NCBI GenBank assembly: GCA_964505875.1
Contig: CAZDJT010000001.1
Span: forward strand, 1-22,710
DNA from: Candidatus Woesearchaeota archaeon
GTDB taxonomy: Archaea > Nanobdellota > Nanobdellia > Pacearchaeales > GW2011-AR1
Direction: 5' to 3'
Length of the DNA: 22,710 bases
Below the pieces are notes generated by a model, which was given only the letters and a program-made list of their open reading frames with translations, did not search any database and was not told the origin of the DNA. Each line of letters starts with the position of its first letter. The first letter of the stretch is position 1. This document shows positions 1,873 to 21,071 of this stretch, in pieces. The position numbers and the translations under genes were made by a program.

Positions 1873-2760
1873 TTAATAATCAATTATAACTGCACCATTA
1901 GCACCGCTAGCTCCAGGATTCATCCTAGCACTGGAACTTGCGCCAGATGACGTTCCAATATTTCTTCCACATTCAGCATAAGCAGGATAAGTAATACAAT
2001 CATAACCAGACCCTCCAGAAACTTCAATCGCTCCAGGCGCTCCTGGTAAACCATCAACAGTATCTCCGCCCTTGGCCCCGTTGGCTCCTTGAGCATATCC
2101 TCCGCTTCCGCCAACACGATTAATATCTCCATTCAATCCAGAACCTCCAAGAGCAACCGTAGTAGTCCAAGCTTTTCCTCCTTTGCCTCCAGTTGCAGAA
2201 ACAAGAGTACTAAAGCTGCTTGTCCCTCCATCTTTCCCATCAGAACGCAAATCTGGAGGAGATACCCAATTAGTTCCTGGAGAACCTCCAGTTCCAACGC
2301 TAATTGTATAAGTTGTACCAGAAGAAACAGTCAATATTTTTTCAGCATATCCTCCACTTCCTCCTCCTGTCGCTCCCCCATATTCTTGAGTTCCCATAGA
2401 TGAACCTCCGCCAGCACCCCAGACTTTTACACGTATTTTAGAAACTCCAGAAGGAACAATCCACTGATAACTTCCATTAGGTATAAAACTAATGCTATTG
2501 CTAAATGAACCAGAAACCGTTCCCGTTCCACTTCCATTCCCCAATTTCCCCAGATTGATAGCATCCTGCACAGTCATGCTATCCCCATTTATAGAAACAA
2601 CAAGCTCATCAGCAGTATGTCCGAAAACAGCCGCTTGGCTTACTGTTTTAAAAGAATTTCCGAAGTTAAAAGCATAAGCGCTGAAAACTCCAGCAAGCAG
2701 AACAATAGAAACTATTATAGCTAGAAAATACTTCTTATTAATATTGACCTCTATTTTCAT
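1873..2760 (-). CDS. Secreted or membrane-anchored glycine-rich-domain protein (phage-tail-fibre-like Gly-rich repeat domain)
   Basis: ORF track 1873..2781 starts at TTG. ATG 2760 (MKIEVNINKKYFLAIIVSIVLLAGVF..) sits 23 nt from TATA 2783..2790. It has an N-terminal signal anchor, then SYQWIVPSGVSKIRVKVWGAGGGS..GGGSGGYAEK..VGTGG..GGKGG..GGSGG...GAVIIDY. This is the x-VP-x-GV-x-x-(I/V)-x-V-x-x-WGAGGG pattern of glycine-rich domains. Confidence 0.6.
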   Translation of the reverse strand: MKIEVNINKKYFLAIIVSIVLLAGVFSAYAFNFGNSFKTVSQAAVFGHTADELVVSINGDSMTVQDAINLGKLGNGSGTGTVSGSFSNSISFIPNGSYQWIVPSGVSKIRVKVWGAGGGSSMGTQEYGGATGGGSGGYAEKILTVSSGTTYTISVGTGGSPGTNWVSPPDLRSDGKDGGTSSFSTLVSATGGKGGKAWTTTVALGGSGLNGDINRVGGSGGYAQGANGAKGGDTVDGLPGAPGAIEVSGGSGYDCITYPAYAECGRNIGTSSGASSSARMNPGASGANGAVIIDY

Positions 2761-2782
2761 ACCAGAAAGAGGGAAAAGCAAT

Positions 2783-6603: not shown

Positions 6604-9255
6604 TCAAATTGCATAATAAATAGGATAATTATATTCGGTATATCCAAGATTGAGTTTGCTTATTTCATTCAAATCTGCAAGATCATTTGCTTTAATCATG
6701 CTTTGTGAGATTGTATACAGAACATTTTCCATATAAAGGCTTCTTTGAATTCTTTTTTGCCAATCATAATTATAAGGCTCATAATTTATTCCTCCAGGAA
6801 ATTGATCTATCCCCTCATTGCCTTGAGTTCCAGAATAATAATCAGAAGAGTAATCAATTCCATTAAGAGTGCCTTCTTCAACATAAGCTTTATTTCTCCA
6901 TTCATCTTCACCTATCTTTTCCCATATATTTGAATATTGATCTTTTCTTTCAGCTCCGGCAAGTTCATCTTTTGCAGGCCCATAAGTAGGCTTATATTCT
7001 TCAACATGCGTGATTTTTCCCTTTAATTCAATGCTATCTTCGTCAATATTGAATACATACGCTCCATTCCATTGTTTATATCTATTGCCATTAGAATATG
7101 AATATTGTATAGGCACAGACAGCAAATTTTTTTCTTTATTGAACAAAAATGCTTTATGCTCATAAAGTGCTTCAGAACTGCTCCAAGTCCATTGCCCATC
7201 GCTCTTAATAGCATACTTTGCTTTTTCTACTGGATTAGAAACATCTGAAACATCAAACAGCGCTATTTTAACTCCGGAAACTCTTCCTTCTTCATTTGCA
7301 TCCATTCCGATGCCTATAATAGTATCTTGATCATAAGGATGTAAATAGCTTGAGTACCCGGTTACTTTCAAATATCCTAAAATTTCTGGCTTCTCTGGTT
7401 TGGATAAATCAATAACATAAAGAGGATCTACCTGCCTGAAAGTCACCATGTAAACTCGGTCACTAATAAATCTGGAAGAATAAATTCTCTCTCCTTTTGC
7501 AAGATCTTCAACACTTCCAATTATTTCCAAATCTTTATTCAAAACATAAAGATGATTCAAGGTGCTATCTCCCCAGCTTCCAGTTGTAACTGCTGCTCTT
7601 AAATTGCCTTTATATTCATCCAATGAAAACTGATTTAATAAATGCCCGGGAACTTCACCGCTTGACTCGTATTTAACATTCAAGCCATCAATCTCAATTT
7701 TATGAATAATCGTTTTCTCGTATTCTTTGCTTATCTTTATTCTTGCTTTCTCAATTGATTCTGCCAATTTCTTATTAAAATCACTTCCTTCGTCAGTCTT
7801 GCCTAAACTTTTTGAATAAACAGCAACAACTTTCATAATAACTGACTGCTTTTGATAAATATAAGTATTAGATTCCAAGACTTCATTTATTTTCTCCTTA
7901 TATGATTGGGGCATTAAAGGAATAATTCCTTCTTTTATAAGAAGCTCAGCCTGTTTATCATAATCTATCCATTTTTGAGAAGTTAAATAAATATTATTCT
8001 CAGAAACATAAATTGTCCCGGACGCGCCAAGTAAATATGCTTTAACTTCTGCCTTCTCCTCTTCTAAATCAATTGCATTTACATAAGTAAAAACAAAATT
8101 TTCATCATATTCATCAGAATAGTAAATATCATCAATATCAACTGCTTTTTCAGTTCCATCTATAGAATACATAGGTCTTGGAATGCCATAATTATACAAA
8201 TACTGCTGCGATACTAAATATATAGTGTCTCCAATCATTCTTGCATCCATATAATTTCCATTGAATGAATAATTGCCTTCAGGAGCGGGTTTCTTCTTAT
8301 CTGAGATATCATAAACAAGCACATTTGTTTTACTCTGAGAATATCCTCCGCAGCCATATCCAGAACAAGGGGCAATAATGCTTTCAGCAACTGCTGCAAC
8401 ACCACCAATTGCTGCAGCACCACCAATAAGAGAATCACTGTAATAACTCTGCTGGCTCTGCATAAAAATAATTAACTTGTCTCCATTGACAAAAATATTT
8501 TGAGCTCCGCCAGTGATATTTATCTCGCTAACATTATGCATTTGTTCAGCAGGATAGGCATCGACAATAGCTAATTTATTTCCTGAAATAGTATAGATAT
8601 ACTTGCCATCATTCTTGACAAAATCTGGCTCATCTACCCCTTTAACTTGCACATTTGTCTGCGAGTAATCAGAAGCACTCTGGCTCCCGGATTTCATCTC
8701 TGCACTTGCTGTCTGAGCAGCTGTATTTGCAGAATCAGAAACCATACCGCCATATCCTTCTCCAAATCCTCTTCTGCTTCGATTCGCCTTTTCCTGCAAA
8801 TAGTTTTCAAGCTCTGCATACGATGAAAACTGATTAAATGAAGAGTCCTCGCTTCCATTGTTTATGGCTAGCCTATGACTTATCATTCCAATTAACGCAA
8901 TTACCAAGATAACCCCCAATAATGCGATTAACATAACAACAGGAACAGAGCTAATCATTTTTTTAGGGGAGATTAATATCTTCTTGTTAGAAAGTTTATA
9001 AGTGGGTATTTTCTTTCCTTTTATACTCCAGAAAAAGCTCTTGGTCTTTTCAATCAATCCAGATTCTAAAAGCTTAGCAATATTATAGCCAACAGTGTTC
9101 AATGGAATACTTAACGCTTGAGAAATGTCGCTTTCACTCATCTCTTTCTCAGCTAAAAGCCCTAAAATTCTCTTGCACGTTTTATTTGCCATTACTTCTG
9201 CAATTATTCCTGCTCTTGGATCGTCTATATCAAAATCTATTCGTTTATCGGTCAT
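6604..9255 (-). CDS. Membrane-tethered winged-HTH (ArsR/HTH_20-like) fused to a large extracytoplasmic beta-propeller domain (COG4880/Beta_propel-like)
   Basis: 883 aa. aa ~14-85 (nt ~9001..9216) read CKRILGLLAEKEMSESDISQALSIPLNTVGYNIAKLLESGLIEK, a wHTH pattern. A basic stretch KKILISPKK is followed by a TM segment at aa ~100-127 (nt ~8875..8958). The propeller family signatures follow: TNVQVKGVDEPDFVKNDGKYIY and KIALFDVSDVSNPVEKAKY...EALYEHKAFLFNKEKNLLSVPI. Confidence 0.8.
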   Translation of the reverse strand: MTDKRIDFDIDDPRAGIIAEVMANKTCKRILGLLAEKEMSESDISQALSIPLNTVGYNIAKLLESGLIEKTKSFFWSIKGKKIPTYKLSNKKILISPKKMISSVPVVMLIALLGVILVIALIGMISHRLAINNGSEDSSFNQFSSYAELENYLQEKANRSRRGFGEGYGGMVSDSANTAAQTASAEMKSGSQSASDYSQTNVQVKGVDEPDFVKNDGKYIYTISGNKLAIVDAYPAEQMHNVSEINITGGAQNIFVNGDKLIIFMQSQQSYYSDSLIGGAAAIGGVAAVAESIIAPCSGYGCGGYSQSKTNVLVYDISDKKKPAPEGNYSFNGNYMDARMIGDTIYLVSQQYLYNYGIPRPMYSIDGTEKAVDIDDIYYSDEYDENFVFTYVNAIDLEEEKAEVKAYLLGASGTIYVSENNIYLTSQKWIDYDKQAELLIKEGIIPLMPQSYKEKINEVLESNTYIYQKQSVIMKVVAVYSKSLGKTDEGSDFNKKLAESIEKARIKISKEYEKTIIHKIEIDGLNVKYESSGEVPGHLLNQFSLDEYKGNLRAAVTTGSWGDSTLNHLYVLNKDLEIIGSVEDLAKGERIYSSRFISDRVYMVTFRQVDPLYVIDLSKPEKPEILGYLKVTGYSSYLHPYDQDTIIGIGMDANEEGRVSGVKIALFDVSDVSNPVEKAKYAIKSDGQWTWSSSEALYEHKAFLFNKEKNLLSVPIQYSYSNGNRYKQWNGAYVFNIDEDSIELKGKITHVEEYKPTYGPAKDELAGAERKDQYSNIWEKIGEDEWRNKAYVEEGTLNGIDYSSDYYSGTQGNEGIDQFPGGINYEPYNYDWQKRIQRSLYMENVLYTISQSMIKANDLADLNEISKLNLGYTEYNYPIYYAI

Positions 9256-10876: not shown

Positions 10877-11647
10877 TCAAGACAGAGAAGTAAGTTCTCT
10901 CAATTTTTCTCCAGGATATTTAGCTTCTAATATTCCAGTTCCAATAAGAAAACCATCAACATGATACATTAAAGATTCAACATCATCTCTCGTCCTTATG
11001 CCAGATTCAGATATTACAAACTTGTCTTTAGGAATCAACTTTGCTAAATTTAAAGTCTTATTTAGATCAACACTCTGAGTCTCTAAATCTCTATTATTGA
11101 TGCCGATTAACTTCGCCTCTAATCTTAGAGCCCTTTCAACTTCTTCTTCACAACTAACTTCAACAAGAGCGTGCATTCTATATCTATGAGCAAGCTCAGA
11201 AAATTCAGCTAATTCATGATCATTTAGAATTGAACTGACAAGCAAAACCATATCGGCTCCAAACAATCTGGCTTGATAAATCTGATAAGGATTTACAATA
11301 AAATCTTTTCTCAAAACTGGCTTGCTCGTCTGCGCTTTGAAAAGCTCTAAATCTTTCAAGCTTCCTCCAAAATATCTCTCATCTGTCAAAACAGAAACAG
11401 CTCTGCAATAATGGTCATAAATGCCGGTTAGTTCTTTTATATTATTCTTTCCACTAAAATCTTCTCCAGAAGGAGATTTTCTCTTAAATTCTCCAATTAT
11501 ATTAATCTCTCCTTTCGGAAAGATAACTTCTAAAGAATCCACTCTAGCCTGAGTAACTCTATTAAAAATACTGTTTAAAGAATGCCTTCTCATTTCAGCA
11601 CTAACTTCTTCTCTCTTGTGCTTGACAATTTCTTCTAAAAGCCCCAT
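10877..11647 (-). CDS. trpC: Indole-3-glycerol-phosphate synthase (TrpC)
   Basis: Motifs IGEFKRKSPSG, VLTDERYFGGS, PVLRKDFIVNPYQIYQARLFGADMVLL, LVEV, IGINNRDL and ISESGI. The ORF-track start (11662) is TTG, only 6 nt from the TATA. ATG 11647 lies 21 nt from box 11668..11675, so I moved the start there. Confidence 0.85.
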   Translation of the reverse strand: MGLLEEIVKHKREEVSAEMRRHSLNSIFNRVTQARVDSLEVIFPKGEINIIGEFKRKSPSGEDFSGKNNIKELTGIYDHYCRAVSVLTDERYFGGSLKDLELFKAQTSKPVLRKDFIVNPYQIYQARLFGADMVLLVSSILNDHELAEFSELAHRYRMHALVEVSCEEEVERALRLEAKLIGINNRDLETQSVDLNKTLNLAKLIPKDKFVISESGIRTRDDVESLMYHVDGFLIGTGILEAKYPGEKLRELTSLS

Positions 11648-11703
11648 AAACAAACCTCTCAAGAAGCATTTATATGTTTTATGTCAAAGTTAACAAATAA
11701 GAA

Positions 11704-14410: not shown

Positions 14411-14481
14411 ATTCAGAAAGGTGAATGTTTCTAGTTCAATAAAGGAGAAAGATAATTAATTATTAAAAAAACCTTATAAGT

Positions 14482-14587
14482 AGGAAATTGCATTACCAAT
14501 TTGTCTATATTTTAAACATAAAAAATCAGCTATCTTAGTACTAAGAAACTAAATTAAGCAGGAAATTGCATTACCAATTTGTCTATA
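14482..14587. repeat. 28-bp perfect direct repeat (14482..14509 and 14560..14587), period 78 bp; the second copy is the last codons of the Cys-rich gene
   Basis: AGGAAATTGCATTACCAATTTGTCTATA occurs twice. On the minus strand it encodes YRQIGNAIS. The orphan copy continues ..YL-TAA and the gene copy continues ..CLI-TAG. Confidence 0.85.
14520..14546 (-). terminator. Putative terminator region of the Cys-rich gene: 14-bp palindrome TCTTAGTACTAAGA (14533..14546) followed on the minus strand by a T6 run (14520..14525)
   Basis: The palindrome starts 2 nt after the stop codon. Archaeal termination typically occurs at oligo-T runs. A second T7 run (14465..14471) follows the orphan repeat copy. Confidence 0.35.
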
Positions 14588-15742
14588 GGTATGTGTTGGA
14601 GGACTACCAACTGGACAAGTAGGATTAGCAGCACACTCTCCATAATTAGGATATTGCTCAAGACATGACCAAGTATACCTTCCAGTTACATTAGCTGGTA
14701 GACAATTAGTAACAATATAATAACCGCCAGCGCCAGAACAAGAACAAGCACTACCATAATAATTAGATGTTCGCTGACAAGCTACTTTGCTAGTAACAAC
14801 ACAAGCACCATTAATGCATCCATTAATATAAGAACAAAGATAGGTTTGATTTGTTTCAGAAGTACCAGAGCAGGAATATTCAGTTAAATTTCTAGTAGCA
14901 AGACTATTTATAGTAAGACCATTATCAGTGCAGAAATCTGAATGTTCAAATGAAATGCCATTAACAAAACCGCTTGTCGTTCCTCTAGAATTATAATTCA
15001 AACCGCCATCACTATCAATACAAGTCGTATCAGTAGATGAAATTGTTTTTATCAATTGTATCCCATTTATCATAGGACCATAAGATACTGGAAGAACTTG
15101 AATATTAATTCCAGTGCTTCCTACAACAATTCCTTTATATAAAACATACTGCAGATTTTGCTGCCAGGTTGAAGAGCTAAAGACAGAAGAACTGGTAGAT
15201 GTCTGTTTTACACCATAATTAACGCTCGCTGTAACATTATATTTACCTGCTTGTGCGGCTTTGTCTCCATGTCCATAAATATAAAAATCATAAGTTCCGG
15301 CAGGAATTCCAGTTAAACCAATAGCGACTTGACCACCAGACTGATATCTGTATGATCCCATCATCTTATCATTGACAGCAAAAGTAGCACCATATTTTCC
15401 AGAAAAAGTTGTGGTAAAAGCTAGTCTGACCGAACTAACCGTATTATTTGCAAATCTCATAACGCTACCGCCATCCTTATTCCAATAGTCTCCAAGATTT
15501 CCAGGTGCAACTCCCGCTCCAACCTTCGATGAAAGCACATTTCCAGTGCCAAAATCAATATTAACAAGAAAATTATTAGATACACCAACGGGACTTAATC
15601 CTACACTCTTTTCAAACCAAGTGCTGGGATTCCACCAAACAGCAGAAGCAAGAGAAACAAATAAAACGGATAACAAAGCAAAAAAGAAAACATTTTTAGC
15701 AAAACTCTTTTCATTTTTAGCAAAACTCTTTTGATTAATCAT
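14549..15742 (-). CDS. Secreted or membrane-anchored protein: N-terminal signal anchor, beta-sandwich (CBM/lectin-like) middle, C-terminal Cys-rich region with a CxDSDGG module
   Basis: 397 aa. TM or signal sequence VFFFALLSVLFVSLASAVWW. No Cys in aa 1-240, then 14 Cys in aa 241-397 (nt 14552..15022), starting CIDSDGGLNYNSRG...EYSC...C...CINGAC. A GAGGT Shine-Dalgarno-like sequence (15747..15751) lies 4 nt before the ATG. Confidence 0.6.
   Translation of the reverse strand: MINQKSFAKNEKSFAKNVFFFALLSVLFVSLASAVWWNPSTWFEKSVGLSPVGVSNNFLVNIDFGTGNVLSSKVGAGVAPGNLGDYWNKDGGSVMRFANNTVSSVRLAFTTTFSGKYGATFAVNDKMMGSYRYQSGGQVAIGLTGIPAGTYDFYIYGHGDKAAQAGKYNVTASVNYGVKQTSTSSSVFSSSTWQQNLQYVLYKGIVVGSTGINIQVLPVSYGPMINGIQLIKTISSTDTTCIDSDGGLNYNSRGTTSGFVNGISFEHSDFCTDNGLTINSLATRNLTEYSCSGTSETNQTYLCSYINGCINGACVVTSKVACQRTSNYYGSACSCSGAGGYYIVTNCLPANVTGRYTWSCLEQYPNYGECAANPTCPVGSPPTHTYRQIGNAISCLI
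15692..15733. repeat. 21-bp tandem duplication (2 units, 20/21 identical) inside the 5' end of the Cys-rich gene
   Basis: ATTTTTAGCAAAACTCTTTTC followed by ATTTTTAGCAAAACTCTTTTG. It encodes QKSFAKN-EKSFAKN just before the TM segment. Confidence 0.85.
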
Positions 15743-15816: not shown

Positions 15817-18800
15817 TTACTCTATCTTAACATTCTGCTTTGCCTGATTGACTCTATCCTGCTGCTTCAAAGACTTCACAGTAGAAAGAATAACAAAGAG
15901 TATTGCAATTATAGCGGCCGCAAATAAGACTGCAAGCCCTATAATAATATAATCAGGAACACTCTTCTTTCCCGTATTGCCAGAGCCAGAAAGAGATTTA
16001 TCATCCCCAATTAATTGAACATCAATCTGAGGATTCTTGTCTTTGTATCCTGCAAACTTCAGGATAAGATCATCTTTTCCATCTCCATTTATATCGACTT
16101 GCTTTGTTTCACCAACAGCTAAATCTACTTTAACCGGTGTAGACTGAATAAGCAAAGAAACTTTATCTTTTTCAATAGCTACTACAGTTATTTTATGTGC
16201 CTCTCCAGCATAATTAAAGTAGTAAGAACCATCAACACTGACTGTCTGCTCAACATTATCGCTACCTCCGCTATTTACAACAAACACGACGCTTTGAGCA
16301 ACCGTTTCTGTAATAACTGGAACTGTTGTTGTACTTCCGCTGCCTCCTCCGCCTCCACTGCTAGAAGATTCAACAGCAGTAAAACTTATATTAGCATTCT
16401 GCAAAGTTCCCTGCTCATCAACAGCATTAACAGAGAAAGTGTATCCTCCTGCAAGATTGCTTAAGCTTCTCTGCAAAGAATAATCTGAAGCGTTATACAA
16501 TGCCTTTACTTCAGAAGCTGAAAGACTTCTATTGAATACAAGAAATTCATCCATTGTTCCATTGAAAGGAACATTCCAATATCCTGAATAATTTCTTACA
16601 CCTCCACCTATTTGCAAAGAATTCATAAAAGTATAGTTGAGTCTTAAATTCTTATTATTAGTAGAAGAAGAAACAAAGATTCCATTGTTATATCCTCTTG
16701 CTGTAGAACCATCCCAAGTAAAAGCAATATGTGTCCAATTTCCCAAAGTAACTTCATAAGGGGATGGAAAAGCCAGGTACAAACCACTATTATCATCTGA
16801 AATTCCATTCATAACAAGAATAGGCGTATTTGATGATGTATAAATCCATATGGGATGAGTTCCGTCAGCAGTATCCGCCATTGAATCACCTATAGTAAGA
16901 TATGTTTTTACATAATTAAAAGAGTCCATCTTGCTATTATTAAACCAAAATGAGATAGTATAGCTAGTAACATTAAAAGGTAAAGAGGCATTAATCCCGC
17001 CATTATAACCATTCATAACAAAAGCTCCTCCAAATTTACCATTAGGTATTGGATATCCTGAATTGTAAACAGTAGCATTTTTGCTCTTCCCGCTCCAGTC
17101 ATAAATTTTCGTGTTGTTCTCTCCAACTTCGCTCTTGTTATCAAATCTATACCAAGCCAATAAACCATCTGTAAAGAAAGCATAAGTCCTGTTGCCCATA
17201 AATCCAAGGCTTGTTGATGCATTCAAAGTCACATCTGTCCCAGTCTCACTACCATCTCTCGGACTAGGAGAAACGAAAGTAATATTGTAAACTGTCGTAT
17301 TGACAATAAATGTTCTTGACAAACTATTTCTATTTCCTAAAGTATCATTTGCATAAACTATAAAACTATAAGTCCCGTTTACAAGTGTAGAGTTGCTTGA
17401 ATTATAGTGTAAATTATCAGAAGAAGCAATAGAATAATTTGTCACTCCAGAATTGAAGCTATAAAGCAAAGAGCTTCCATTCTCATCCAAAGAAATATTA
17501 AACAAAATAGGCAGAAAGTGATAAGTTGAACTTAAAGGAGAGAAAATAGTAATATTCGGCCCAGTAATATCATTCAAAGTCACCGTTCTCTGCTCAGTAT
17601 TATTTCTTGCCCCATTTGTATCGTAAGCATAAGCCTTGAATGTGTGCGTCCCCGCAGAAACAAAGCCTGTAAAGTTATGTGAATAAGGATAAGCAGAAGA
17701 ATTATACAAAGATTGAACTTCATCTGCAGTTAAAGTCCTATTAAAAAGCATAAATTCATCCAGATTTCCAGCAAAGTCGCTTCCACCAAATGGATTTGTT
17801 CCAATTACAGAATCTGTAACAGGATTAGGATGATTTCCAACCGTGCTATTAGCTCCTTTTAAAACTCCATTCACATAAATCTTCAGTCCTGTCCCAGAAT
17901 TATAAGTTCCAACAACATGCGTCCAAGTATTAAGAGGAATTTCATCTGGACTTTGGGCAATATTCCACTGAGTTCCATTTTGAATTTGAATTCTAGGACT
18001 ATTATGGACAGAATCATAACCAAAAAGATAAGTGGTACCAATACTGACTGCTTCTCCATAAATAAACTGATCTCCTTGCGATGTTAAGTAAACCCAAGTA
18101 GAAATTGAAGACTGAGTAAGATTAGATATGAACTGCCCTCCAGCAGGATATACAACATCTCCGTCGCCGTCAAAATGGAAAGAATTATTGAATATTCCAG
18201 AGCTATTCTGAACAGCATCTCCCTCAATACTTCCATTAATGCTGTAACTGCTTGAATCAATCGGATTCCCAGAACCGTCAACATCATCAAAAGTATACCA
18301 TAACTTCAAACTTCTATCAAAATCAACAAAACTATAATGGCTTCCAGTTCCTCCAGAAGTTGAAACATTTACATAAATAGAAGTAGAATTTAAAGTCGAT
18401 TCATTGCTAGGAGTAGGTGCAGTAAAGTTGATAGCAAATTGAGGAGGGTCAACAATATAATCAAACTCTGCTCCTGCTCCCTCTACTTTCAAGTCAAAGA
18501 CATCTTGACTATGATTTAAAGCTGTTAACAAAATCCTATATTTCTTATCTTCAGAAATTGTTCCAAAGTTAGCCAGTTCTTTATCTCCATCTTTCTCATA
18601 AACTTTAACGTTCGCTATCCCCGAACTCTTAGCATAAATAGTAATATCATTCTCAGCAGTCAAATTTCTCTCAAAAGTCACACGAACAAAATGCTCTGCA
18701 GGAATTTCTTCAGTCCAATTATTATCTCTTTCTTTAACTAAATTATATATGTCTTCAATGAAAGTTCTATTCTCATCTAAATGCTCGGCTTTAGTTATAT

Positions 18801-20859
18801 AAATTATATCAAAAGTCTGATTGCTCAGATGAGGAACAACCCACTCAACATAATCTACTCTCCCATCTCCATCTAAGTCATAAGCGTCAAAAGGCATTTC
18901 CTGCCTTGAATATCTTTCGCTTGCTTGTGATGAAATAGCCTTGCCAGTAATTGAACTTTCATAAATAAAATCATTTTCCCCTATTACAATCTCTTCAGGA
19001 ACATCTTCAACACTCTTTATCTCCGCTCTCTCATTTTGATTATAATTACGCCAGTAAACTCTTATTTTATCTCTATCTTCAAGAGAAATTGAATTATCAA
19101 GTAAAGAAGAAGCAATAACATCAGTATAGTACAGCTCATCAGGAGCAGAAATAATTACGCTTTTTCCGCCAGAAATATTTTCCTCACGAGCTTCAGGAGC
19201 TTCAGTATAATATTCAATCAAATAATCCTGTGCGTTATCATTTAGATAAACTTGTATGTTATTATTGCTTGTTTCCACATCAGCAATAGCGTTCCCTGTT
19301 AGATAAGAACCGAAGTTTTTAATTAGCTTATTAAAGTAATTCTCATTTTTCACATAATCATCTATTGCTCTTCCAGTTATCTCATTTCCTGATGCATCAG
19401 TTATCTCTCTCTTTTCCACTTCTTTCTCAACTCCTTCCTCAACTTTCTTCAGAGTAATGTTCTCCGCATTTGCTGGTAACTCAACGCTTAAATTATCTGC
19501 AGTTTCCAGACTTACGCTCTTCGTCCACTTTACAGGCTCGCCAACAACTATCCTGCTTCTTAATGTAGTTACGCTTACCGCTCCAGAAGAAACAAGAATG
19601 ATAAAATTATTGCTGCTTGCTTCATCCTCTCCAGCGTAAGCAAAGAAAGTCCCAACTGCAGATCCCTTGAATTCAGATTCGGCGGTCAGTTTTACTTTCT
19701 CGCCTGTAAACTCTGCTTTTATCTCTCCTTTGGAAGTAAATGAATAACTCTCAGCGTTGGAGAAATAATTAGACAAGTCTAAAACTGTAGAGCCACTAGC
19801 AGGCACACGTATAATTGGAATCTCAGCCAGAACACCGAGAGAACTATTAGACAAAACAGTGCTATCGTTTTTTCTAAGCGCTAATTTGCTCTCTTCTTTG
19901 TCAATAGAATATTCACCATATTTTATTTCCGCTTCGAGTGAATTTCCATTGACAACTATGCCCAGACTTGACATGTTTACGATATAAATTCTTGTGCTAG
20001 AACCGGAAAAATCAGGGCCAAAGCCCTCTTCATCAATTCCATATTCAGTAGAGATAGTTAATATTCCATTTTCAACATCAATATTCAGTAGACTGCCATC
20101 AATTTCTTTACCATTAGCGTAAATACTTCCTTTAACAATTTCAGCGCCATCATACTTTCCCATATTATGAGCAAATGGTTTGCCTTTGCTCGCACTGCCG
20201 CTTATCTTCTCTTCATTTGAAATAACATTTCCAGTTAAATCGCTTCCTTCTGAAACTTGCACTGAAGGCCCCTCAGCCACGGGGACAGTTACATCTGTTT
20301 GAGTTTCAGCATTAGTATCTTCACTGCTTTTTTCTTCACCAACTTCTTCACCTGCTTGTTTTGTCAGCAAAACATCAAAGCTTATTTTAGGGTATTCTGT
20401 CTTTTTCCCCTTAAATCCATATCCTTTTCCTTCACCAGAAATATCAGTTCCTTTAATATAATATGAACCATAAGAATCTCCTTCTCCGGCAACATCTGAA
20501 AGCAAGAACTCTTTAGTCTGATTTCCTAAACTAAGAACAAGCAGAGAGTTTTCAGGCATCAATTCACCGGAAAAAACATTGAATATCAAGTTTCCAGCAA
20601 GAATCTCTCCCTGAGAATATGAATCTTTAATGTCCAAGCTAACTCTCCCAGTTAAGTTTTGCTTTACTCCCCCTTGAAGCATGAAAATAAGAGCAATTCC
20701 GACAACAAGTATAATAACTGCCAGAAGAAGATAAAGATTTGCTTTCTTTTGCTCAGTTCCTATATAACTTGTTACAACTCTGCCTTCAACTCTTTTGGTC
20801 TCATATATGTAAGGGCCATATACTTTTCCTCCTTTTTTTATAAATTTCCTATGCGTCAC
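15817..20859 (-). CDS. Giant (1680 aa) surface protein anchored at both ends, with two LamG/ConA-like lectin domains and many N-glycosylation sequons
   Basis: Single ORF with a GTG start. TM1 at aa ~41-61 (nt 20677..20739) and TM2 at aa ~1636-1661 (nt 15877..15954). LamG-like modules at nt ~17695..18309 and ~16489..17163 (WYxFD...WTH...NG...DEF(M/L)(L/V)FNR(T/S)L(T/S)A(D/S)EVxxLYN). DxDxDG motifs at 18853..18879 and 16069..16095. Ser/Gly linker at 16321..16368. Confidence 0.8.
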   Translation of the reverse strand: MTHRKFIKKGGKVYGPYIYETKRVEGRVVTSYIGTEQKKANLYLLLAVIILVVGIALIFMLQGGVKQNLTGRVSLDIKDSYSQGEILAGNLIFNVFSGELMPENSLLVLSLGNQTKEFLLSDVAGEGDSYGSYYIKGTDISGEGKGYGFKGKKTEYPKISFDVLLTKQAGEEVGEEKSSEDTNAETQTDVTVPVAEGPSVQVSEGSDLTGNVISNEEKISGSASKGKPFAHNMGKYDGAEIVKGSIYANGKEIDGSLLNIDVENGILTISTEYGIDEEGFGPDFSGSSTRIYIVNMSSLGIVVNGNSLEAEIKYGEYSIDKEESKLALRKNDSTVLSNSSLGVLAEIPIIRVPASGSTVLDLSNYFSNAESYSFTSKGEIKAEFTGEKVKLTAESEFKGSAVGTFFAYAGEDEASSNNFIILVSSGAVSVTTLRSRIVVGEPVKWTKSVSLETADNLSVELPANAENITLKKVEEGVEKEVEKREITDASGNEITGRAIDDYVKNENYFNKLIKNFGSYLTGNAIADVETSNNNIQVYLNDNAQDYLIEYYTEAPEAREENISGGKSVIISAPDELYYTDVIASSLLDNSISLEDRDKIRVYWRNYNQNERAEIKSVEDVPEEIVIGENDFIYESSITGKAISSQASERYSRQEMPFDAYDLDGDGRVDYVEWVVPHLSNQTFDIIYITKAEHLDENRTFIEDIYNLVKERDNNWTEEIPAEHFVRVTFERNLTAENDITIYAKSSGIANVKVYEKDGDKELANFGTISEDKKYRILLTALNHSQDVFDLKVEGAGAEFDYIVDPPQFAINFTAPTPSNESTLNSTSIYVNVSTSGGTGSHYSFVDFDRSLKLWYTFDDVDGSGNPIDSSSYSINGSIEGDAVQNSSGIFNNSFHFDGDGDVVYPAGGQFISNLTQSSISTWVYLTSQGDQFIYGEAVSIGTTYLFGYDSVHNSPRIQIQNGTQWNIAQSPDEIPLNTWTHVVGTYNSGTGLKIYVNGVLKGANSTVGNHPNPVTDSVIGTNPFGGSDFAGNLDEFMLFNRTLTADEVQSLYNSSAYPYSHNFTGFVSAGTHTFKAYAYDTNGARNNTEQRTVTLNDITGPNITIFSPLSSTYHFLPILFNISLDENGSSLLYSFNSGVTNYSIASSDNLHYNSSNSTLVNGTYSFIVYANDTLGNRNSLSRTFIVNTTVYNITFVSPSPRDGSETGTDVTLNASTSLGFMGNRTYAFFTDGLLAWYRFDNKSEVGENNTKIYDWSGKSKNATVYNSGYPIPNGKFGGAFVMNGYNGGINASLPFNVTSYTISFWFNNSKMDSFNYVKTYLTIGDSMADTADGTHPIWIYTSSNTPILVMNGISDDNSGLYLAFPSPYEVTLGNWTHIAFTWDGSTARGYNNGIFVSSSTNNKNLRLNYTFMNSLQIGGGVRNYSGYWNVPFNGTMDEFLVFNRSLSASEVKALYNASDYSLQRSLSNLAGGYTFSVNAVDEQGTLQNANISFTAVESSSSGGGGGSGSTTTVPVITETVAQSVVFVVNSGGSDNVEQTVSVDGSYYFNYAGEAHKITVVAIEKDKVSLLIQSTPVKVDLAVGETKQVDINGDGKDDLILKFAGYKDKNPQIDVQLIGDDKSLSGSGNTGKKSVPDYIIIGLAVLFAAAIIAILFVILSTVKSLKQQDRVNQAKQNVKIE

Positions 20860-20862
20860 TTT

Positions 20863-21071
20863 TGTAAGATAACTCTCTTTTAGCTCAAAAAAAGAGGATT
20901 TTTATGTTTATAAGCATTTCCAATAAGTTTTATAGGTAAGAAAGTGTGAGATAACTGATAACTTAGATAAAGATAAAATATAGAGGTGTGAGATAACTAT
21001 ATTTGATAAATTAGAACATTAATAATATAATTATTATCATAGTATAATAAGATAATAATAGTTATCTTACA
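20863..21071. promoter_or_regulatory. Array of four copies of the 12-mer TGTRAGATAACT in the radB / giant-gene intergenic region (candidate operator array)
   Basis: Copies: 20863..20874 TGTAAGATAACT, 20945..20956 TGTGAGATAACT, 20987..20998 TGTGAGATAACT, and 21060..21071 AGTTATCTTACA (inverted, an exact reverse complement of copy 1). Copies 2 and 3 share a 13-mer (GTGTGAGATAACT). Extra GATAA(C/A) half-sites lie at 20950..20978. Confidence 0.6.

What the first reader, a model, noticed from the sequence alone, without database searches (positions are those of the whole stretch)
15817..20859. 1680-aa sequon-dense surface protein anchored at both ends, with two LamG/ConA-like lectin domains: candidate host-attachment or envelope protein
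Seen: one uninterrupted 5-kb ORF. A hydrophobic segment (aa ~41-61) follows a 40-aa basic N-terminus. A second hydrophobic segment (aa ~1636-1661) is followed by a basic tail. So about 1570 aa are predicted to be extracellular and tethered at both ends. Two paralogous ~200-aa modules (nt ~17695..18309 and ~16489..17163) share WYxFD ... WTH(V/I) ... NG ... DEF(M/L)(L/V)FNR(T/S)L(T/S)A(D/S)EVxxLYN, the Laminin_G_3/ConA-like signature. There are two DxDxDG calcium-loop-like motifs (DLDGDGRVD, DINGDGKDD) and a Ser/Gly linker. By eye I count more than 40 N-x-S/T sequons; this needs a recount. The gene and its Cys-rich neighbour form a 6.5-kb accessory block wedged between the housekeeping genes lig and radB. 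Inference: a heavily N-glycosylated adhesin or envelope protein of the kind proposed to mediate cell-cell contact in episymbiotic small-genome archaea. No member of this family is functionally characterised to my knowledge.
Basis: partly seen in the sequence, partly recalled or inferred. Interest (0 to 1): 0.7.

Follow-up and report, generated by a model that had tools for sequence, protein, structure and literature searches.

The report
Variable lectin surface protein, DPANN archaeon
This 1680-residue gene encodes a membrane-anchored, probably heavily glycosylated surface protein with two lectin domains from a tiny symbiotic-type (DPANN) archaeon; it belongs to a very large, unnamed family of giant surface proteins and sits in a genome slot that differs between related strains, so it is a good but not unprecedented candidate for cell or sugar attachment.

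Summary
There is one 5,043-nt ORF whose GTG start aligns with Met-1 of homologues. It has strongly hydrophobic segments at aa 42-61 and 1637-1661, two paralogous Laminin_G_3 domains, two Ca-loop-like motifs, a Ser/Gly linker and no cysteine. The sequon recount is 52 against about 24 expected, and the reverse motif S/T-x-N occurs only 25 times.

Flanking genes place the window in a Nano/Woese/Pacearchaeota (DPANN) genome.

New here: aa 1-812 has no Pfam match but defines a huge unannotated family (2,649 clusters at 50% identity, median about 1,950 aa). Members share a basic N-terminal YGPY beta-sheet, a TM helix, Ig-like domains and a core with an EF-hand-like loop, followed by unrelated C-terminal domain sets. 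Four relatives carry a HerA/VirB4-like ATPase after a second TM, the architecture reported for nanohaloarchaeal SPEARE proteins.

The radB-lig slot is hypervariable. It is empty in five relatives, holds an ABC transporter in three distinct relatives, and holds smaller two-TM LamG proteins in three.

The Cys-rich neighbour is not a conserved partner.

Best reading: a strain-variable glycosylated lectin/adhesin. This is a known kind of DPANN protein. Function is inferred, and cleavage of the N-terminal anchor is unresolved.

The parts
15817..20859 (-). Whole gene: 1680-aa surface protein (GTG start, TAA stop followed by a T7 run)
   Evidence: start aligned with Met-1 of homologues
20752..20859 (-). 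aa 1-36: basic N-terminal module KKGGKVYGPYIYETKRVEGRVVTSYIG, modelled as a three-stranded beta-sheet; presumed cytoplasmic, or an extended signal-peptide n-region
   Evidence: AlphaFold pLDDT ~94. Invariant K12, Y14, G15, P16, Y17, Y19, Y32 in 7 homologues. G..YGPY motif in 54 of 152 family members. PF20586/DUF6788 precomputed for homologues P0013 and P0059, which carry the same motif, but not reproduced locally
20668..20739 (-). aa 41-64: first hydrophobic segment (TM1 or signal-anchor H-region), followed by NLTGRV
   Evidence: Kyte-Doolittle 3.16; helix 42-64 with pLDDT >90; N-terminal TM in 131 of 152 family members
20350..20655 (-). aa 69-170: family-conserved beta-sandwich domain 1 (GELxP ... 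GxGxGYGxxG ... YP motifs)
   Evidence: pLDDT >=90; HMM of this module hits only family members; only generic Ig-like fold matches
20224..20349 (-). aa 171-212: acidic disordered linker ending in DLTGNV
   Evidence: 11 D/E in 42 aa; pLDDT <50; length-variable and low-complexity in homologues
19864..20223 (-). aa 213-332: family-conserved beta domain 2
   Evidence: pLDDT 91-98; 'mid' HMM hits family members only
18424..19578 (-). aa 428-812: conserved family core, all-beta, jelly-roll/CBM-like, with two disordered loop regions carrying the ITGxAI motifs (aa ~486-530 and ~613-646)
   Evidence: Alignment A2. 2,649 clusters at E<=1e-3 and 1,437 at E<=1e-30. Model pLDDT 79, with 220 of 411 residues >=90. 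Weak CBM, lectin and phage-tail-like fold hits only. No Pfam or PDB sequence match
18844..18879 (-). aa 661-672: DLDGDGRVDYVE, an EF-hand-like Ca2+ loop (positions 1, 3, 5, 6=G, 8=V, 9, 12=E) inside the core
   Evidence: D661 and D669 invariant, followed by invariant W..P.LSNQ. Sub-threshold EF-hand hits. Ca2+ binding is inferred
17695..18309 (-). aa 851-1055: LamG/ConA-like domain 1, preceded by an FTAPTPSN lead-in at aa 812-850
   Evidence: Pfam PF13385; paralogous to domain 2
17164..17694 (-). aa 1056-1232: Ig-like spacer domains plus the FVSPSPRD lead-in
   Evidence: Weak Big_13, Big_3_3 and Y_Y_Y hits. aa 1097-1217 is 45% identical to a domain of an unrelated 2035-aa LamG protein in L001
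16489..17163 (-). aa 1233-1457: LamG/ConA-like domain 2
   Evidence: Pfam PF13385, E 1.6e-18 on the sub-sequence. PDB 4qvs 'S-layer domain-containing protein' E 1.2e-7; 5hon arabinanase LamG-like domain
16324..16368 (-). aa 1498-1512: Ser/Gly/Thr linker SSSSGGGGGSGSTTT
15952..16323 (-). aa 1513-1636: membrane-proximal beta module with an FG-GAP-like loop, DINGDGKDD (aa 1589-1597)
   Evidence: Homologous to the C-terminal module of the two-TM LamG proteins in the radB-lig slot of L014 (E 7e-7) and L012. FG-GAP sub-threshold. No sequons here
15877..15951 (-). aa 1637-1661: second hydrophobic segment (TM2), with no PGF motif
   Evidence: Kyte-Doolittle 3.21. About 30 family members have a late TM followed by a basic tail, and 4 have a HerA/VirB4-like ATPase after it, which fixes the C-terminus as cytoplasmic
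15820..15876 (-). aa 1662-1680: short basic tail (KSLKQQDRVNQAKQNVKIE), presumed cytoplasmic
14549..15742 (-). Neighbouring gene: 397-aa secreted Cys-rich protein (signal-like N-terminus, ~170-aa beta module, 14 Cys); shares the slot but is not a conserved partner
   Evidence: No Pfam, NCBIfam or PDB hit. aa 59-232 recur as repeats in large proteins on high-GC, presumably bacterial, contigs; none lies next to a family member. Own TATA-like/SD-like upstream sequence after the giant gene's T-run

Best explanation
The gene encodes a modular cell-surface glycoprotein of a DPANN archaeon (Nano/Woese/Pacearchaeota type).

Proposed mechanism, with each step marked as shown or inferred:

1. Membrane insertion. 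The basic N-terminal YGPY module stays in the cytoplasm and TM1 inserts N-in. The module and TM1 are shown; the orientation is inferred from charge bias.
2. Export and glycosylation. About 1,570 residues are exported and N-glycosylated at many of the 52 sequons. Directional sequon selection is shown; actual glycosylation is inferred.
3. Stalk. The family-conserved ~800 aa next to TM1 (Ig-like domains plus a jelly-roll core with an EF-hand-like Ca2+ loop) forms a common stalk. The fold and its conservation are shown; Ca2+ binding is inferred.
4. Head. The lineage-specific distal part presents two LamG lectin domains on Ig-like spacers. These bind glycans or glycoproteins on a partner or host cell, or on polymers. 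The domains are shown; the ligand is inferred.
5. C-terminal anchoring. A membrane-proximal beta module and TM2 anchor the C-terminus, leaving a 19-aa basic tail inside the cell. This is supported by relatives that carry an ATPase after TM2.

The gene occupies a hypervariable slot between radB and lig. The slot's content, and the head domains across the family, are reshuffled between strains. That is the pattern expected for a surface molecule under diversifying pressure from host specificity or virus and host evasion.
For: - Archaeal DPANN context: TBP, Nre, ATP-dependent ligase, RadB and RpoL in the window. The closest ligases are 60-63% identical and all come from Nano/Woese/Pacearchaeota MAGs.
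- Topology. Cytoplasmic HerA/VirB4-like ATPase after TM2 in P0002, P0157, P0192 and P0236.
- LamG domains.
- Sequons: 52 observed against 24.2 +/- 4.2 expected, and 52 forward against 25 reverse. The family totals are 13,682 against 6,266. Other window proteins have 22 against 23. All sequons lie in the predicted ectodomain.
- Conserved stalk with variable head: homologues align only over aa 1-850 and then diverge into LamG, beta-helix, Ig or ATPase domains.
- Family size: 2,649 clusters.
- Variable locus: including an IS240-type transposase in the L014 slot.
- Literature: the same role is proposed for LamG/ConA-like, sequon-rich large proteins in nanohaloarchaea, ARMAN Mia14 and Undinarchaeota (PMC7443923, PMC10266531, PMC5498576, PMC7414124). 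Elevated non-synonymous variation has been reported in predicted surface proteins of Nanoarchaeota (PMC6142677).
Against: - No experimental data exist for any family member.
- LamG domains also occur in S-layer-associated proteins and glycoside hydrolases (PDB 4qvs, 5hon), so lectin-type binding to a host is not the only option.
- Fold searches gave only generic beta-sandwich matches.
- No AglB/OST gene lies in the window, so glycosylation capacity was not checked.
- The motif [LIV]TG right after TM1 fits the -3/-1 rule for signal peptidase. It also follows short classical signal peptides in relatives (P0028, P0036), so the N-terminal anchor may be cleaved.
- The host, and whether this organism is episymbiotic at all, are unknown.
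Confidence: 0.6

Rival explanations
1. It is a structural envelope (S-layer-like) glycoprotein of the archaeon itself. In this reading the N-terminal signal is cleaved and the protein is held by the C-terminal TM, as in haloarchaeal S-layer glycoproteins. It builds or decorates the cell wall rather than binding a partner.
For: - Heavy sequon load, a Ser/Gly/Thr linker and a C-terminal TM.
- LamG-2 is closest to PDB 4qvs, 'S-layer domain-containing protein'.
- A possible signal-peptidase site LTG|R lies after TM1, and the same motif follows short signal peptides in relatives.
Against: - The locus is absent or replaced in most close relatives.
- The family is highly paralogous and its members have unrelated C-terminal halves.
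- There is no PGF-CTERM motif.
- The conserved 35-aa structured N-terminal module is atypical for a disposable signal peptide.
Confidence: 0.15
2. It is a substrate-capture protein. The LamG and CBM-like beta-sandwich modules would bind environmental polysaccharides and hold them at the cell surface for feeding, rather than binding another cell.
For: - The core has weak fold similarity to carbohydrate-binding modules (8x8h, 4qpw).
- LamG-2 resembles the LamG-like domain of an extracellular arabinanase (5hon).
- Relatives and slot proteins combine LamG with right-handed beta-helix/NosD-like regions typical of polysaccharide lyases.
Against: - No catalytic domain was detected in this protein.
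- No glycoside-hydrolase or sugar-transporter genes lie in the window.
- Strain-level hypervariability fits recognition of variable biological surfaces better than of common polymers.
Confidence: 0.12
3. It is an ATPase-less member of a SPEARE-like host-contact apparatus. The giant extracellular loop bridges to the host, and its two cytoplasmic ends (the YGPY beta-sheet and the tail) couple to a translocation ATPase supplied in trans, for transfer of DNA or effectors.
For: - Four family relatives fuse a HerA/FtsK/VirB4-like ATPase directly after TM2. Their best NCBIfam hits are CedD, a DNA-translocating ATPase, and TraD/TraC.
- The same architecture is described for nanohaloarchaeal SPEARE and giant proteins (PMC10266531, section 11).
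- The cytoplasmic N-terminal module is conserved.
Against: - This protein's tail is only 19 aa.
- No HerA/VirB4-like gene lies in the 22.7-kb window.
- No second ATPase or T4SS-like gene lies next to P0002.
- Only 4 of about 152 sampled members carry the fusion.
- Sequence homology to SPEARE proteins could not be tested.
Confidence: 0.08

Closest known systems
LamG/ConA-like, sequon-rich large surface proteins of Nanohaloarchaeota (Ca. Nanohalobium, Nanohalococcus, Nanohalovita), ARMAN Mia14 and Undinarchaeota (arCOG07813)
   Same: These are DPANN proteins that are large, secreted or membrane-bound and strain-specific. They carry one to several LamG/ConA-like domains and many N-glycosylation sites, are often encoded on variable regions or genomic islands, and are predicted to mediate host attachment (PMC7443923, PMC10266531, PMC5498576, PMC7414124).
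   Different: Here the LamG domains sit on a conserved ~800-aa N-terminal stalk (YGPY module, TM, Ig-like domains, EF-hand-like core). Pfam does not annotate this stalk, and I did not find it described in those papers. This protein also has a second TM at the C-terminus.
SPEARE / giant membrane-anchored extracellular proteins of Nanohaloarchaeota (e.g. SVXNc_0300, 9,409 aa)
   Same: The layout is an N-terminal export signal, a huge beta-rich ectodomain and a TM near the C-terminus. Family relatives P0002, P0157, P0192 and P0236 also carry a cytosolic HerA/VirB4-like ATPase after that TM, as described for SPEARE proteins (PMC10266531).
   Different: The window protein is much smaller (1680 aa). 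It has a 19-aa tail in place of an ATPase or coiled coil, and uses LamG heads rather than about 75 tandem Ig domains and WD40 propellers. Sequence homology was not tested.
Archaeal S-layer glycoproteins with a C-terminal membrane anchor (e.g. haloarchaeal csg type; own knowledge)
   Same: Exported, N-glycosylated, with a Ser/Thr/Gly-rich linker region and a C-terminal TM followed by a basic tail.
   Different: The locus is not conserved or single-copy. There is no PGF-CTERM motif. The protein has a long conserved N-terminal extension and a modular lectin head.
Bacterial giant adhesins with extended or specialised signal peptides (ESPR of autotransporters and TpsA proteins; YSIRK-G/S signals; own knowledge)
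   Same: Very large modular adhesins whose export signal carries a conserved N-terminal extension before the hydrophobic core. This is an analogy for the YGPY module followed by TM1.
   Different: A different domain of life, with no sequence similarity. The archaeal module is predicted to form a stable three-stranded beta-sheet. Its role in export is pure conjecture.

Membership tests
Laminin_G_3 / ConA-like lectin-glucanase superfamily (domain level) | Profile match above Pfam's gathering score | tested here: met
   PF13385: 145.1 bits against a cut-off of 27.6, in two stretches. The second copy alone gives E 1.6e-18.
Laminin_G_3 / ConA-like lectin-glucanase superfamily (domain level) | Two independent, mutually homologous ~200-aa modules at the stated coordinates | tested here: met
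   BLASTP of 17695-18309 against 16489-17163: 27% identity, E 8e-13.
Laminin_G_3 / ConA-like lectin-glucanase superfamily (domain level) | Functional sugar- or Ca2+-binding site | not tested
   No structure of the LamG modules was predicted and no ligand-site comparison was made.
Unnamed DPANN 'conserved-stalk' giant surface protein family (defined here by alignment A2) | Core module (aa 428-812) with invariant V.W.K, EY.T..P..E, the D..D...W..P.LSNQ block and the ITKAEHLDENR...YVRVTFE...DITIY domain | tested here: met
   Alignment A2. Homologues are 35-52% identical to the query over the core. 2,649 clusters at E<=1e-3.
Unnamed DPANN 'conserved-stalk' giant surface protein family (defined here by alignment A2) | N-terminal hydrophobic anchor followed by conserved beta domains 1 and 2 | tested here: met
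   131 of 152 members have an N-terminal TM. The N-terminal and middle HMMs hit the query and the family members in L001, L002 and L014.
SPEARE-type giant proteins of Nanohaloarchaeota | TM followed by a cytosolic VirB4/TraG-like ATPase domain | tested here: not met
   The query ends 19 aa after TM2. The feature is present in relatives P0002, P0157, P0192 and P0236.
SPEARE-type giant proteins of Nanohaloarchaeota | Sequence homology to published SPEARE proteins | not testable with these tools
   SPEARE sequences could not be retrieved. The description comes from PMC10266531 only.
Archaeal S-layer glycoprotein | Conserved, core-genome envelope locus in related genomes | tested here: not met
   The radB-lig slot is empty in L008, L009, L010, L019 and L033 and differs in the other relatives.
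Archaeal S-layer glycoprotein | Abundant, lattice-forming protein | not testable with these tools
   Needs proteomics or cryo-EM.
PGF-CTERM / archaeosortase substrates | PGF tripeptide immediately before the C-terminal TM | tested here: not met
   The sequence before TM2 is ...GKKSVPDYIIIGLAV... and has no PGF.
EF-hand-type Ca2+-binding loop | D-x-[DN]-x-[DN]-G-x-[ILV]-[DN]-x-x-E spacing, conserved across homologues | tested here: inconclusive
   DLDGDGRVDYVE fits the spacing, and D661 and D669 are invariant. However, Pfam EF-hand_5 scores 19.3 bits against a cut-off of 25.9 and the PDB EF-hand matches have E 0.5-0.9.
DUF6788 (PF20586) | Profile match of the N-terminal YGPY module | tested here: inconclusive
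   PF20586 is listed as a precomputed hit for homologues P0013 and P0059, which carry the same motif. The local Pfam scan gave no hit for the query N-terminus (E<=1) or for P0013 and P0059 (E<=0.01).

The most novel reading that the evidence does not exclude
The 2,649-cluster family may be the Nano/Woese/Pacearchaeota counterpart of the nanohaloarchaeal SPEARE proteins. In this reading it is a host-bridging extracellular 'loop' whose two cytoplasmic ends connect host contact to events inside the symbiont. One end is the conserved YGPY beta-sheet. The other is either a short tail, a long tail or a fused HerA/VirB4-like translocase. The recurrent ITGxAI motifs would mark processing or assembly sites. 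The window protein would then be an ATPase-less module of a contact-dependent transfer apparatus, not just a passive lectin.
Probability: 0.15. Interest if true: 0.7.

Novelty: new variant of a known kind. Interest (0 to 1): 0.42.

Why it matters
How DPANN archaea recognise and hold on to their hosts is largely unknown outside a few cultured pairs, and Woese/Pacearchaeota have no cultured representative. This analysis does not reveal a new principle, because LamG-rich, sequon-rich giant surface proteins are already the standard candidate adhesins.

It does give that candidate class a concrete handle in this clade:
- a conserved, unannotated ~800-aa stalk that identifies thousands of such proteins in metagenomes;
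- a defined, syntenic hypervariable slot (radB-lig) that could serve as a marker of strain-level surface diversification;
- an architectural link, through the ATPase-fused relatives, to the SPEARE proteins of nanohaloarchaea.

These features make targeted metaproteomics, antibody or cryo-ET labelling, and population-genomic tests feasible.

Tried and rejected
- **Source contig.** An exact look-up of the window's ligase in public assemblies found nothing, so the source contig is not identified.
- **Conserved gene pair.** The 397-aa gene downstream of homologue P0001 has the same length as the window's Cys-rich neighbour but is unrelated to it (E 4.1). The neighbour's only relatives are a ~170-aa module repeated in large proteins on high-GC contigs, plus signal-peptide-level matches. 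None lies beside a family member.
- **Cys-rich repeats.** The resemblance between the neighbour's Cys-rich part and the CTDSD repeats of the L014 slot protein is not significant.
- **DUF6788.** PF20586 could not be reproduced for the N-terminal module with the local Pfam copy.
- **Mobile-element signature around the block.** There is no tRNA and no convincing flanking direct or inverted repeats. GC is 0.34-0.39 inside the block and 0.33-0.39 in the flanks. The block is therefore not a recent compositionally foreign island, although the equivalent slot in L014 holds an IS240-type transposase.
- **Names or taxa for the largest and ATPase-fused members.** The cluster look-up returned none.
- **PGF-CTERM anchor.** Rejected from the sequence itself.
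- **Bacterial promoter scan.** Not used, because the organism is archaeal.
Full report
**1. The observation**

The window has a single 5,043-nt ORF on the minus strand (15817-20859). GTG is the first possible start after the upstream stop. It aligns exactly with Met-1 of homologues such as MVHRKFIKRG... and MTYKKYIKRGGKVYGPY....

Kyte-Doolittle scanning finds only two strongly hydrophobic stretches, aa 42-61 and aa 1637-1661. The first 40 residues have 10 K/R against 3 D/E, and the last 19 have 5 K/R against 2 D/E.

Pfam finds Laminin_G_3 at 145 bits against a cut-off of 27.6, in two stretches.

There are 52 N-x-S/T sequons. Composition shuffles give 24.2 +/- 4.2, with a maximum of 43 in 2000 shuffles. 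As a directional control, the reverse motif S/T-x-N occurs 25 times. All 52 sequons lie between the two hydrophobic segments. The other 14 window proteins together have 22 forward and 23 reverse motifs.

Both DxDxDG-like motifs and the Ser/Gly linker are present. The protein has no cysteine, whereas its 397-aa neighbour has 14.

**2. Where it comes from**

The flanking genes are archaeal housekeeping genes: TBP, Nre, ATP-dependent DNA ligase, a RadB/Rad51-type ATPase, RpoL, GatB, deoxyhypusine synthase and a cis-prenyltransferase. The 33 closest ligase loci in GTDB species representatives are at most 63% identical over the full length. All the close ones are Nanoarchaeota, Woesearchaeota or Pacearchaeota MAGs. 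The window is therefore from an uncultured DPANN archaeon. GC content (0.33-0.39) is uniform across the block and its flanks.

**3. What the protein is**

Only ten proteins matched the full-length query in the word-indexed search. Eight of them share aa 1 to about 850 and then diverge completely. Their C-terminal parts include LamG domains (P0001, P0004) and beta-helix-like repeats (P0003, P0005). P0002 instead has a second TM followed by a HerA-like ATPase.

The shared N-terminal part has no Pfam, NCBIfam or PDB sequence match.

A profile of its best-conserved core (aa 428-812, alignment A2) was scored against 1.84 billion cluster representatives:
- 2,649 clusters match at E<=1e-3 and 1,437 at E<=1e-30.
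- The best 150 have a median length of about 1,950 aa and reach 5,919 aa, with the core near the N-terminus.
- Of 152 members examined, 131 have an N-terminal TM, 54 have the G..YGPY motif, and 17 have a TM within the last 80 residues.
- With a looser criterion, about 30 members have a late TM followed by a basic tail.
- Median sequon density is 4.4 per 100 aa, against 3.1 in the query. The forward/reverse sequon ratio is 2.18.

Names attached by the sources are 'hypothetical protein' from Pacearchaeota, Nanoarchaeota or Woesearchaeota, with a few probably mis-binned fragments.

**4. Structure**

Two AlphaFold2 models were built with family alignments.

The aa 1-430 model (mean pLDDT 77) shows:
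- a three-stranded beta-sheet formed by the basic YGPY module (aa 1-35, pLDDT about 94);
- a helix at aa 42-64;
- a beta-sandwich at aa 73-166;
- a disordered acidic linker;
- a second beta domain at aa 216-329.

The aa 420-830 model (mean pLDDT 79, with 220 of 411 residues at 90 or above) is all-beta. It has two disordered loop regions.

Foldseek against PDB and BFVD returns only generic Ig-like, jelly-roll and CBM-like matches. Examples are CBMs 8x8h and 4qpw, Vip3 C-terminal domains, and phage tail or lectin proteins. TM-scores are 0.4 or below.

The core contains DLDGDGRVDYVE, which fits the EF-hand loop spacing (positions 1, 3, 5, 6=G, 8 hydrophobic, 9, 12=E). D661 and D669 are invariant, followed by an invariant W..P.LSNQ block. 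The EF-hand profile matches are below threshold. Ca2+ binding is therefore an inference.

The C-terminal half reads as follows: lead-in plus LamG-1, Ig-like spacers, lead-in plus LamG-2, a short Ig-like piece, the Ser/Gly/Thr linker, a ~120-aa beta module with an FG-GAP-like DINGDGKDD loop, TM2 and a 19-aa tail.

**5. Topology**

The C-terminus is best placed in the cytoplasm. Four family relatives (P0002, P0157, P0192, P0236) continue after the equivalent TM into a 340-480-aa HerA/FtsK/VirB4-like P-loop ATPase. Its best NCBIfam hits are CedD, TraD and TraC, all far below their cut-offs, and such an ATPase needs cytoplasmic ATP. Many other relatives have K/R-rich tails after the late TM.

The N-terminus is less certain. 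The long, conserved and confidently folded N-terminal module, together with the 20-24-residue hydrophobic segment, argue for an uncleaved signal anchor.

Against that, the tripeptide [LIV]-T-G lies 2-10 residues after the hydrophobic segment in every homologue. It also follows short, classical-looking signal peptides in relatives (P0028 ...VVKPSITGHATLD; P0036 ...AFSPSITGLFV), and it fits the -3/-1 rule for signal peptidase I (own knowledge). So 'tethered at both ends' is plausible but not established.

**6. The locus**

Mapping all window proteins onto the 33 ligase loci shows conserved rpoL-radB-[gap]-lig-[gap]-TBP-Nre synteny. The radB-lig gap varies as follows:
- 38-70 bp in L008, L009, L010, L019 and L033;
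- 0.4-0.8 kb with small ORFs in L025 and L026;
- 1.3 kb in L004, where no ORF met the screen's length cut-off;
- 2.1 kb with small ORFs in L011;
- about 2-2.9 kb with an opposite-strand ABC transporter in L007, L031 and L016-L018 (the last three carry the same arrangement);
- about 2.4 kb in L005 and L012, and 6.9 kb in L014.

In L005, L012 and L014 the gap holds a same-strand gene for a 680-780-aa protein with a TM at each end, an xTGxxI motif after TM1 and a LamG domain. These proteins also carry beta-helix repeats (L005, L012) or Cys-rich repeats (L014).

The L012 protein is collinear with query aa 1333-1623 (E 1.7e-8). The L014 protein shares the query's membrane-proximal C-terminal module (E 7e-7). 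None of the three has the family stalk. L014 also has an IS240-type DDE transposase in the slot, and it carries a true family member elsewhere on the same contig.

The window gene is therefore one state of a recurrent, hypervariable surface-protein slot. Its C-terminal third resembles the slot proteins of relatives, and its N-terminal half is the family stalk. Other homologues sit in unrelated neighbourhoods, often next to runs of unannotated genes.

The Cys-rich neighbour has no conserved association with any of these. It is preceded by a T7 run and its own TATA-like and SD-like sequence.

**7. Mechanism and rivals**

The best-supported reading (confidence about 0.6) is a membrane-anchored, N-glycosylated protein that displays lectin domains. 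A conserved stalk presents a strain-specific LamG head for binding glycans on a partner cell.

What is shown: export signals, domain identities, directional sequon selection, the conserved-stalk/variable-head architecture, and locus hypervariability.

What is inferred: actual glycosylation, Ca2+ binding, the ligand, and the episymbiotic lifestyle.

Three rivals remain:
- an S-layer-like structural glycoprotein (0.15), which is disfavoured by the non-conserved locus and the paralogy;
- polysaccharide capture (0.12), which has CBM, LamG and beta-helix affinities but no catalytic or transport context;
- an ATPase-less part of a SPEARE-like transfer apparatus (0.08).

**8. Comparison with what is known**

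Large, organism-specific LamG/ConA-like proteins with many N-glycosylation sites have been proposed as host-attachment systems in all nanohaloarchaea (PMC7443923; PMC10266531). They have also been proposed for ARMAN Mia14, where the LamG locus lies on a genomic island (PMC5498576), and for Undinarchaeales (arCOG07813; PMC7414124).

The SPEARE or giant proteins of nanohaloarchaea are described as signal peptide, giant Ig ectodomain, TM, then cytosolic VirB4/TraG-like ATPase (PMC10266531, section 11). This is the architecture of the P0002 subgroup of the present family. The window protein fails that defining ATPase feature.

The finding is therefore a variant of a known kind. What appears undescribed, in Pfam and in the papers I could search, is the conserved ~800-aa stalk family and the syntenic radB-lig slot.

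**9. Verdict**

- the neighbour is not a partner;
- the slot is hypervariable rather than a one-off insertion;
- N-terminal cleavage is unresolved.

Interest is moderate (0.42). This is useful family-level and locus-level definition for an important open problem, DPANN host recognition. It brings no new principle and no experimental anchor.

Noticed in passing
window 15817-20859 (aa 69-74, 208-213, 494-499, 520-525, 637-642) and family members P0001-P0008, P0113-P0256: A short motif with consensus (S/G)(S/G)-[ILV]-T-G-[NR]-[VA]-[IV]-S-E-E recurs after TM1 and after acidic or amphipathic F/W-rich stretches. Across 152 family proteins there are 365 occurrences against 43 expected, concentrated in the first 700 aa, and mostly in low-pLDDT loops just before beta domains. 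The motif also follows the N-terminal TM of the unrelated slot proteins in L005, L012 and L014. It could be a signal-peptidase or processing site, or a domain-start cap; this is unresolved.
   Followed up: partly
P0002 (L002 5359-11187), P0157, P0192, P0236: A subgroup of the family has a second TM followed by a conserved juxtamembrane motif (SIY.FP.F..LP.S.FAY.G) and a HerA/FtsK/VirB4-like ATPase. Its best NCBIfam hit is the DNA-translocating ATPase CedD, far below cut-off. This mirrors the SPEARE architecture of nanohaloarchaea.
   Followed up: partly
window 14480-14509 and 14558-14587: The last 30 nt of the Cys-rich gene (encoding ...YRQIGNAIS) are repeated almost exactly 78 nt downstream, in the spacer before lig. 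This looks like the leftover 3' end of a replaced or recombined gene copy.
   Followed up: no
window 15691-15732: A perfect 21-nt tandem duplication at the 5' end of the Cys-rich gene gives KSFAKNE-KSFAKNV in the pre-signal region.
   Followed up: no
window 20941-21071 (radB-giant gene spacer): There are two direct copies of GTTATCTCACAC and an inverted pair, TGTGAGATAACTAT / ATAGTTATCTTACA, upstream of the giant gene. They may be operator-like sites. A TATA-like CTTATAAAC lies about 45 nt before the GTG start.
   Followed up: no
window 6604-9255: An 883-aa protein combines an N-terminal ArsR-type HTH (HTH_20, E 8e-11) with a full Beta_propel domain (PF09826, E 7e-155). It is conserved in synteny in several relatives (L014, L025, and N-terminal pieces in L005, L009, L018). 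This is an odd pairing of a DNA-binding domain with a domain usually found in exported proteins.
   Followed up: no
window 10877-11662: A lone indole-3-glycerol-phosphate synthase (trpC) gene lies between TBP and Nre. It has no counterpart at that position, or anywhere else, in the 33 related loci. The lig-TBP spacer is also variable (about 6.7 kb in L005 and 9.2 kb in L013).
   Followed up: partly
window 15817-20859 against 14549-15742; L014 7784-9817: Exported proteins here seem to follow two different styles. One is cysteine-free and sequon-rich (giant protein: 0 Cys, 52 sequons; L005 and L012 slot proteins: 24-25 sequons). The other is cysteine-rich and sequon-poor (L014 slot protein: 14 Cys, 0 sequons; window neighbour: 14 Cys, 5 sequons).
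   Followed up: no
window 1873-2781: A 302-aa protein carries a Gly_rich_2 domain (PF21722, E 7.5e-16). The same Pfam family is listed at the C-terminus of family members P0039 and P0050, which hints at module sharing among surface proteins.
   Followed up: no
L001 13549-19656: Directly downstream of family member P0001 lies a 2035-aa LamG/Big_13 protein that lacks the family stalk. One of its Ig-like domains is 45% identical to query aa 1097-1217, which is higher than the identity of the conserved stalk. This is evidence for shuffling of head modules between otherwise unrelated giant proteins.
   Followed up: partly
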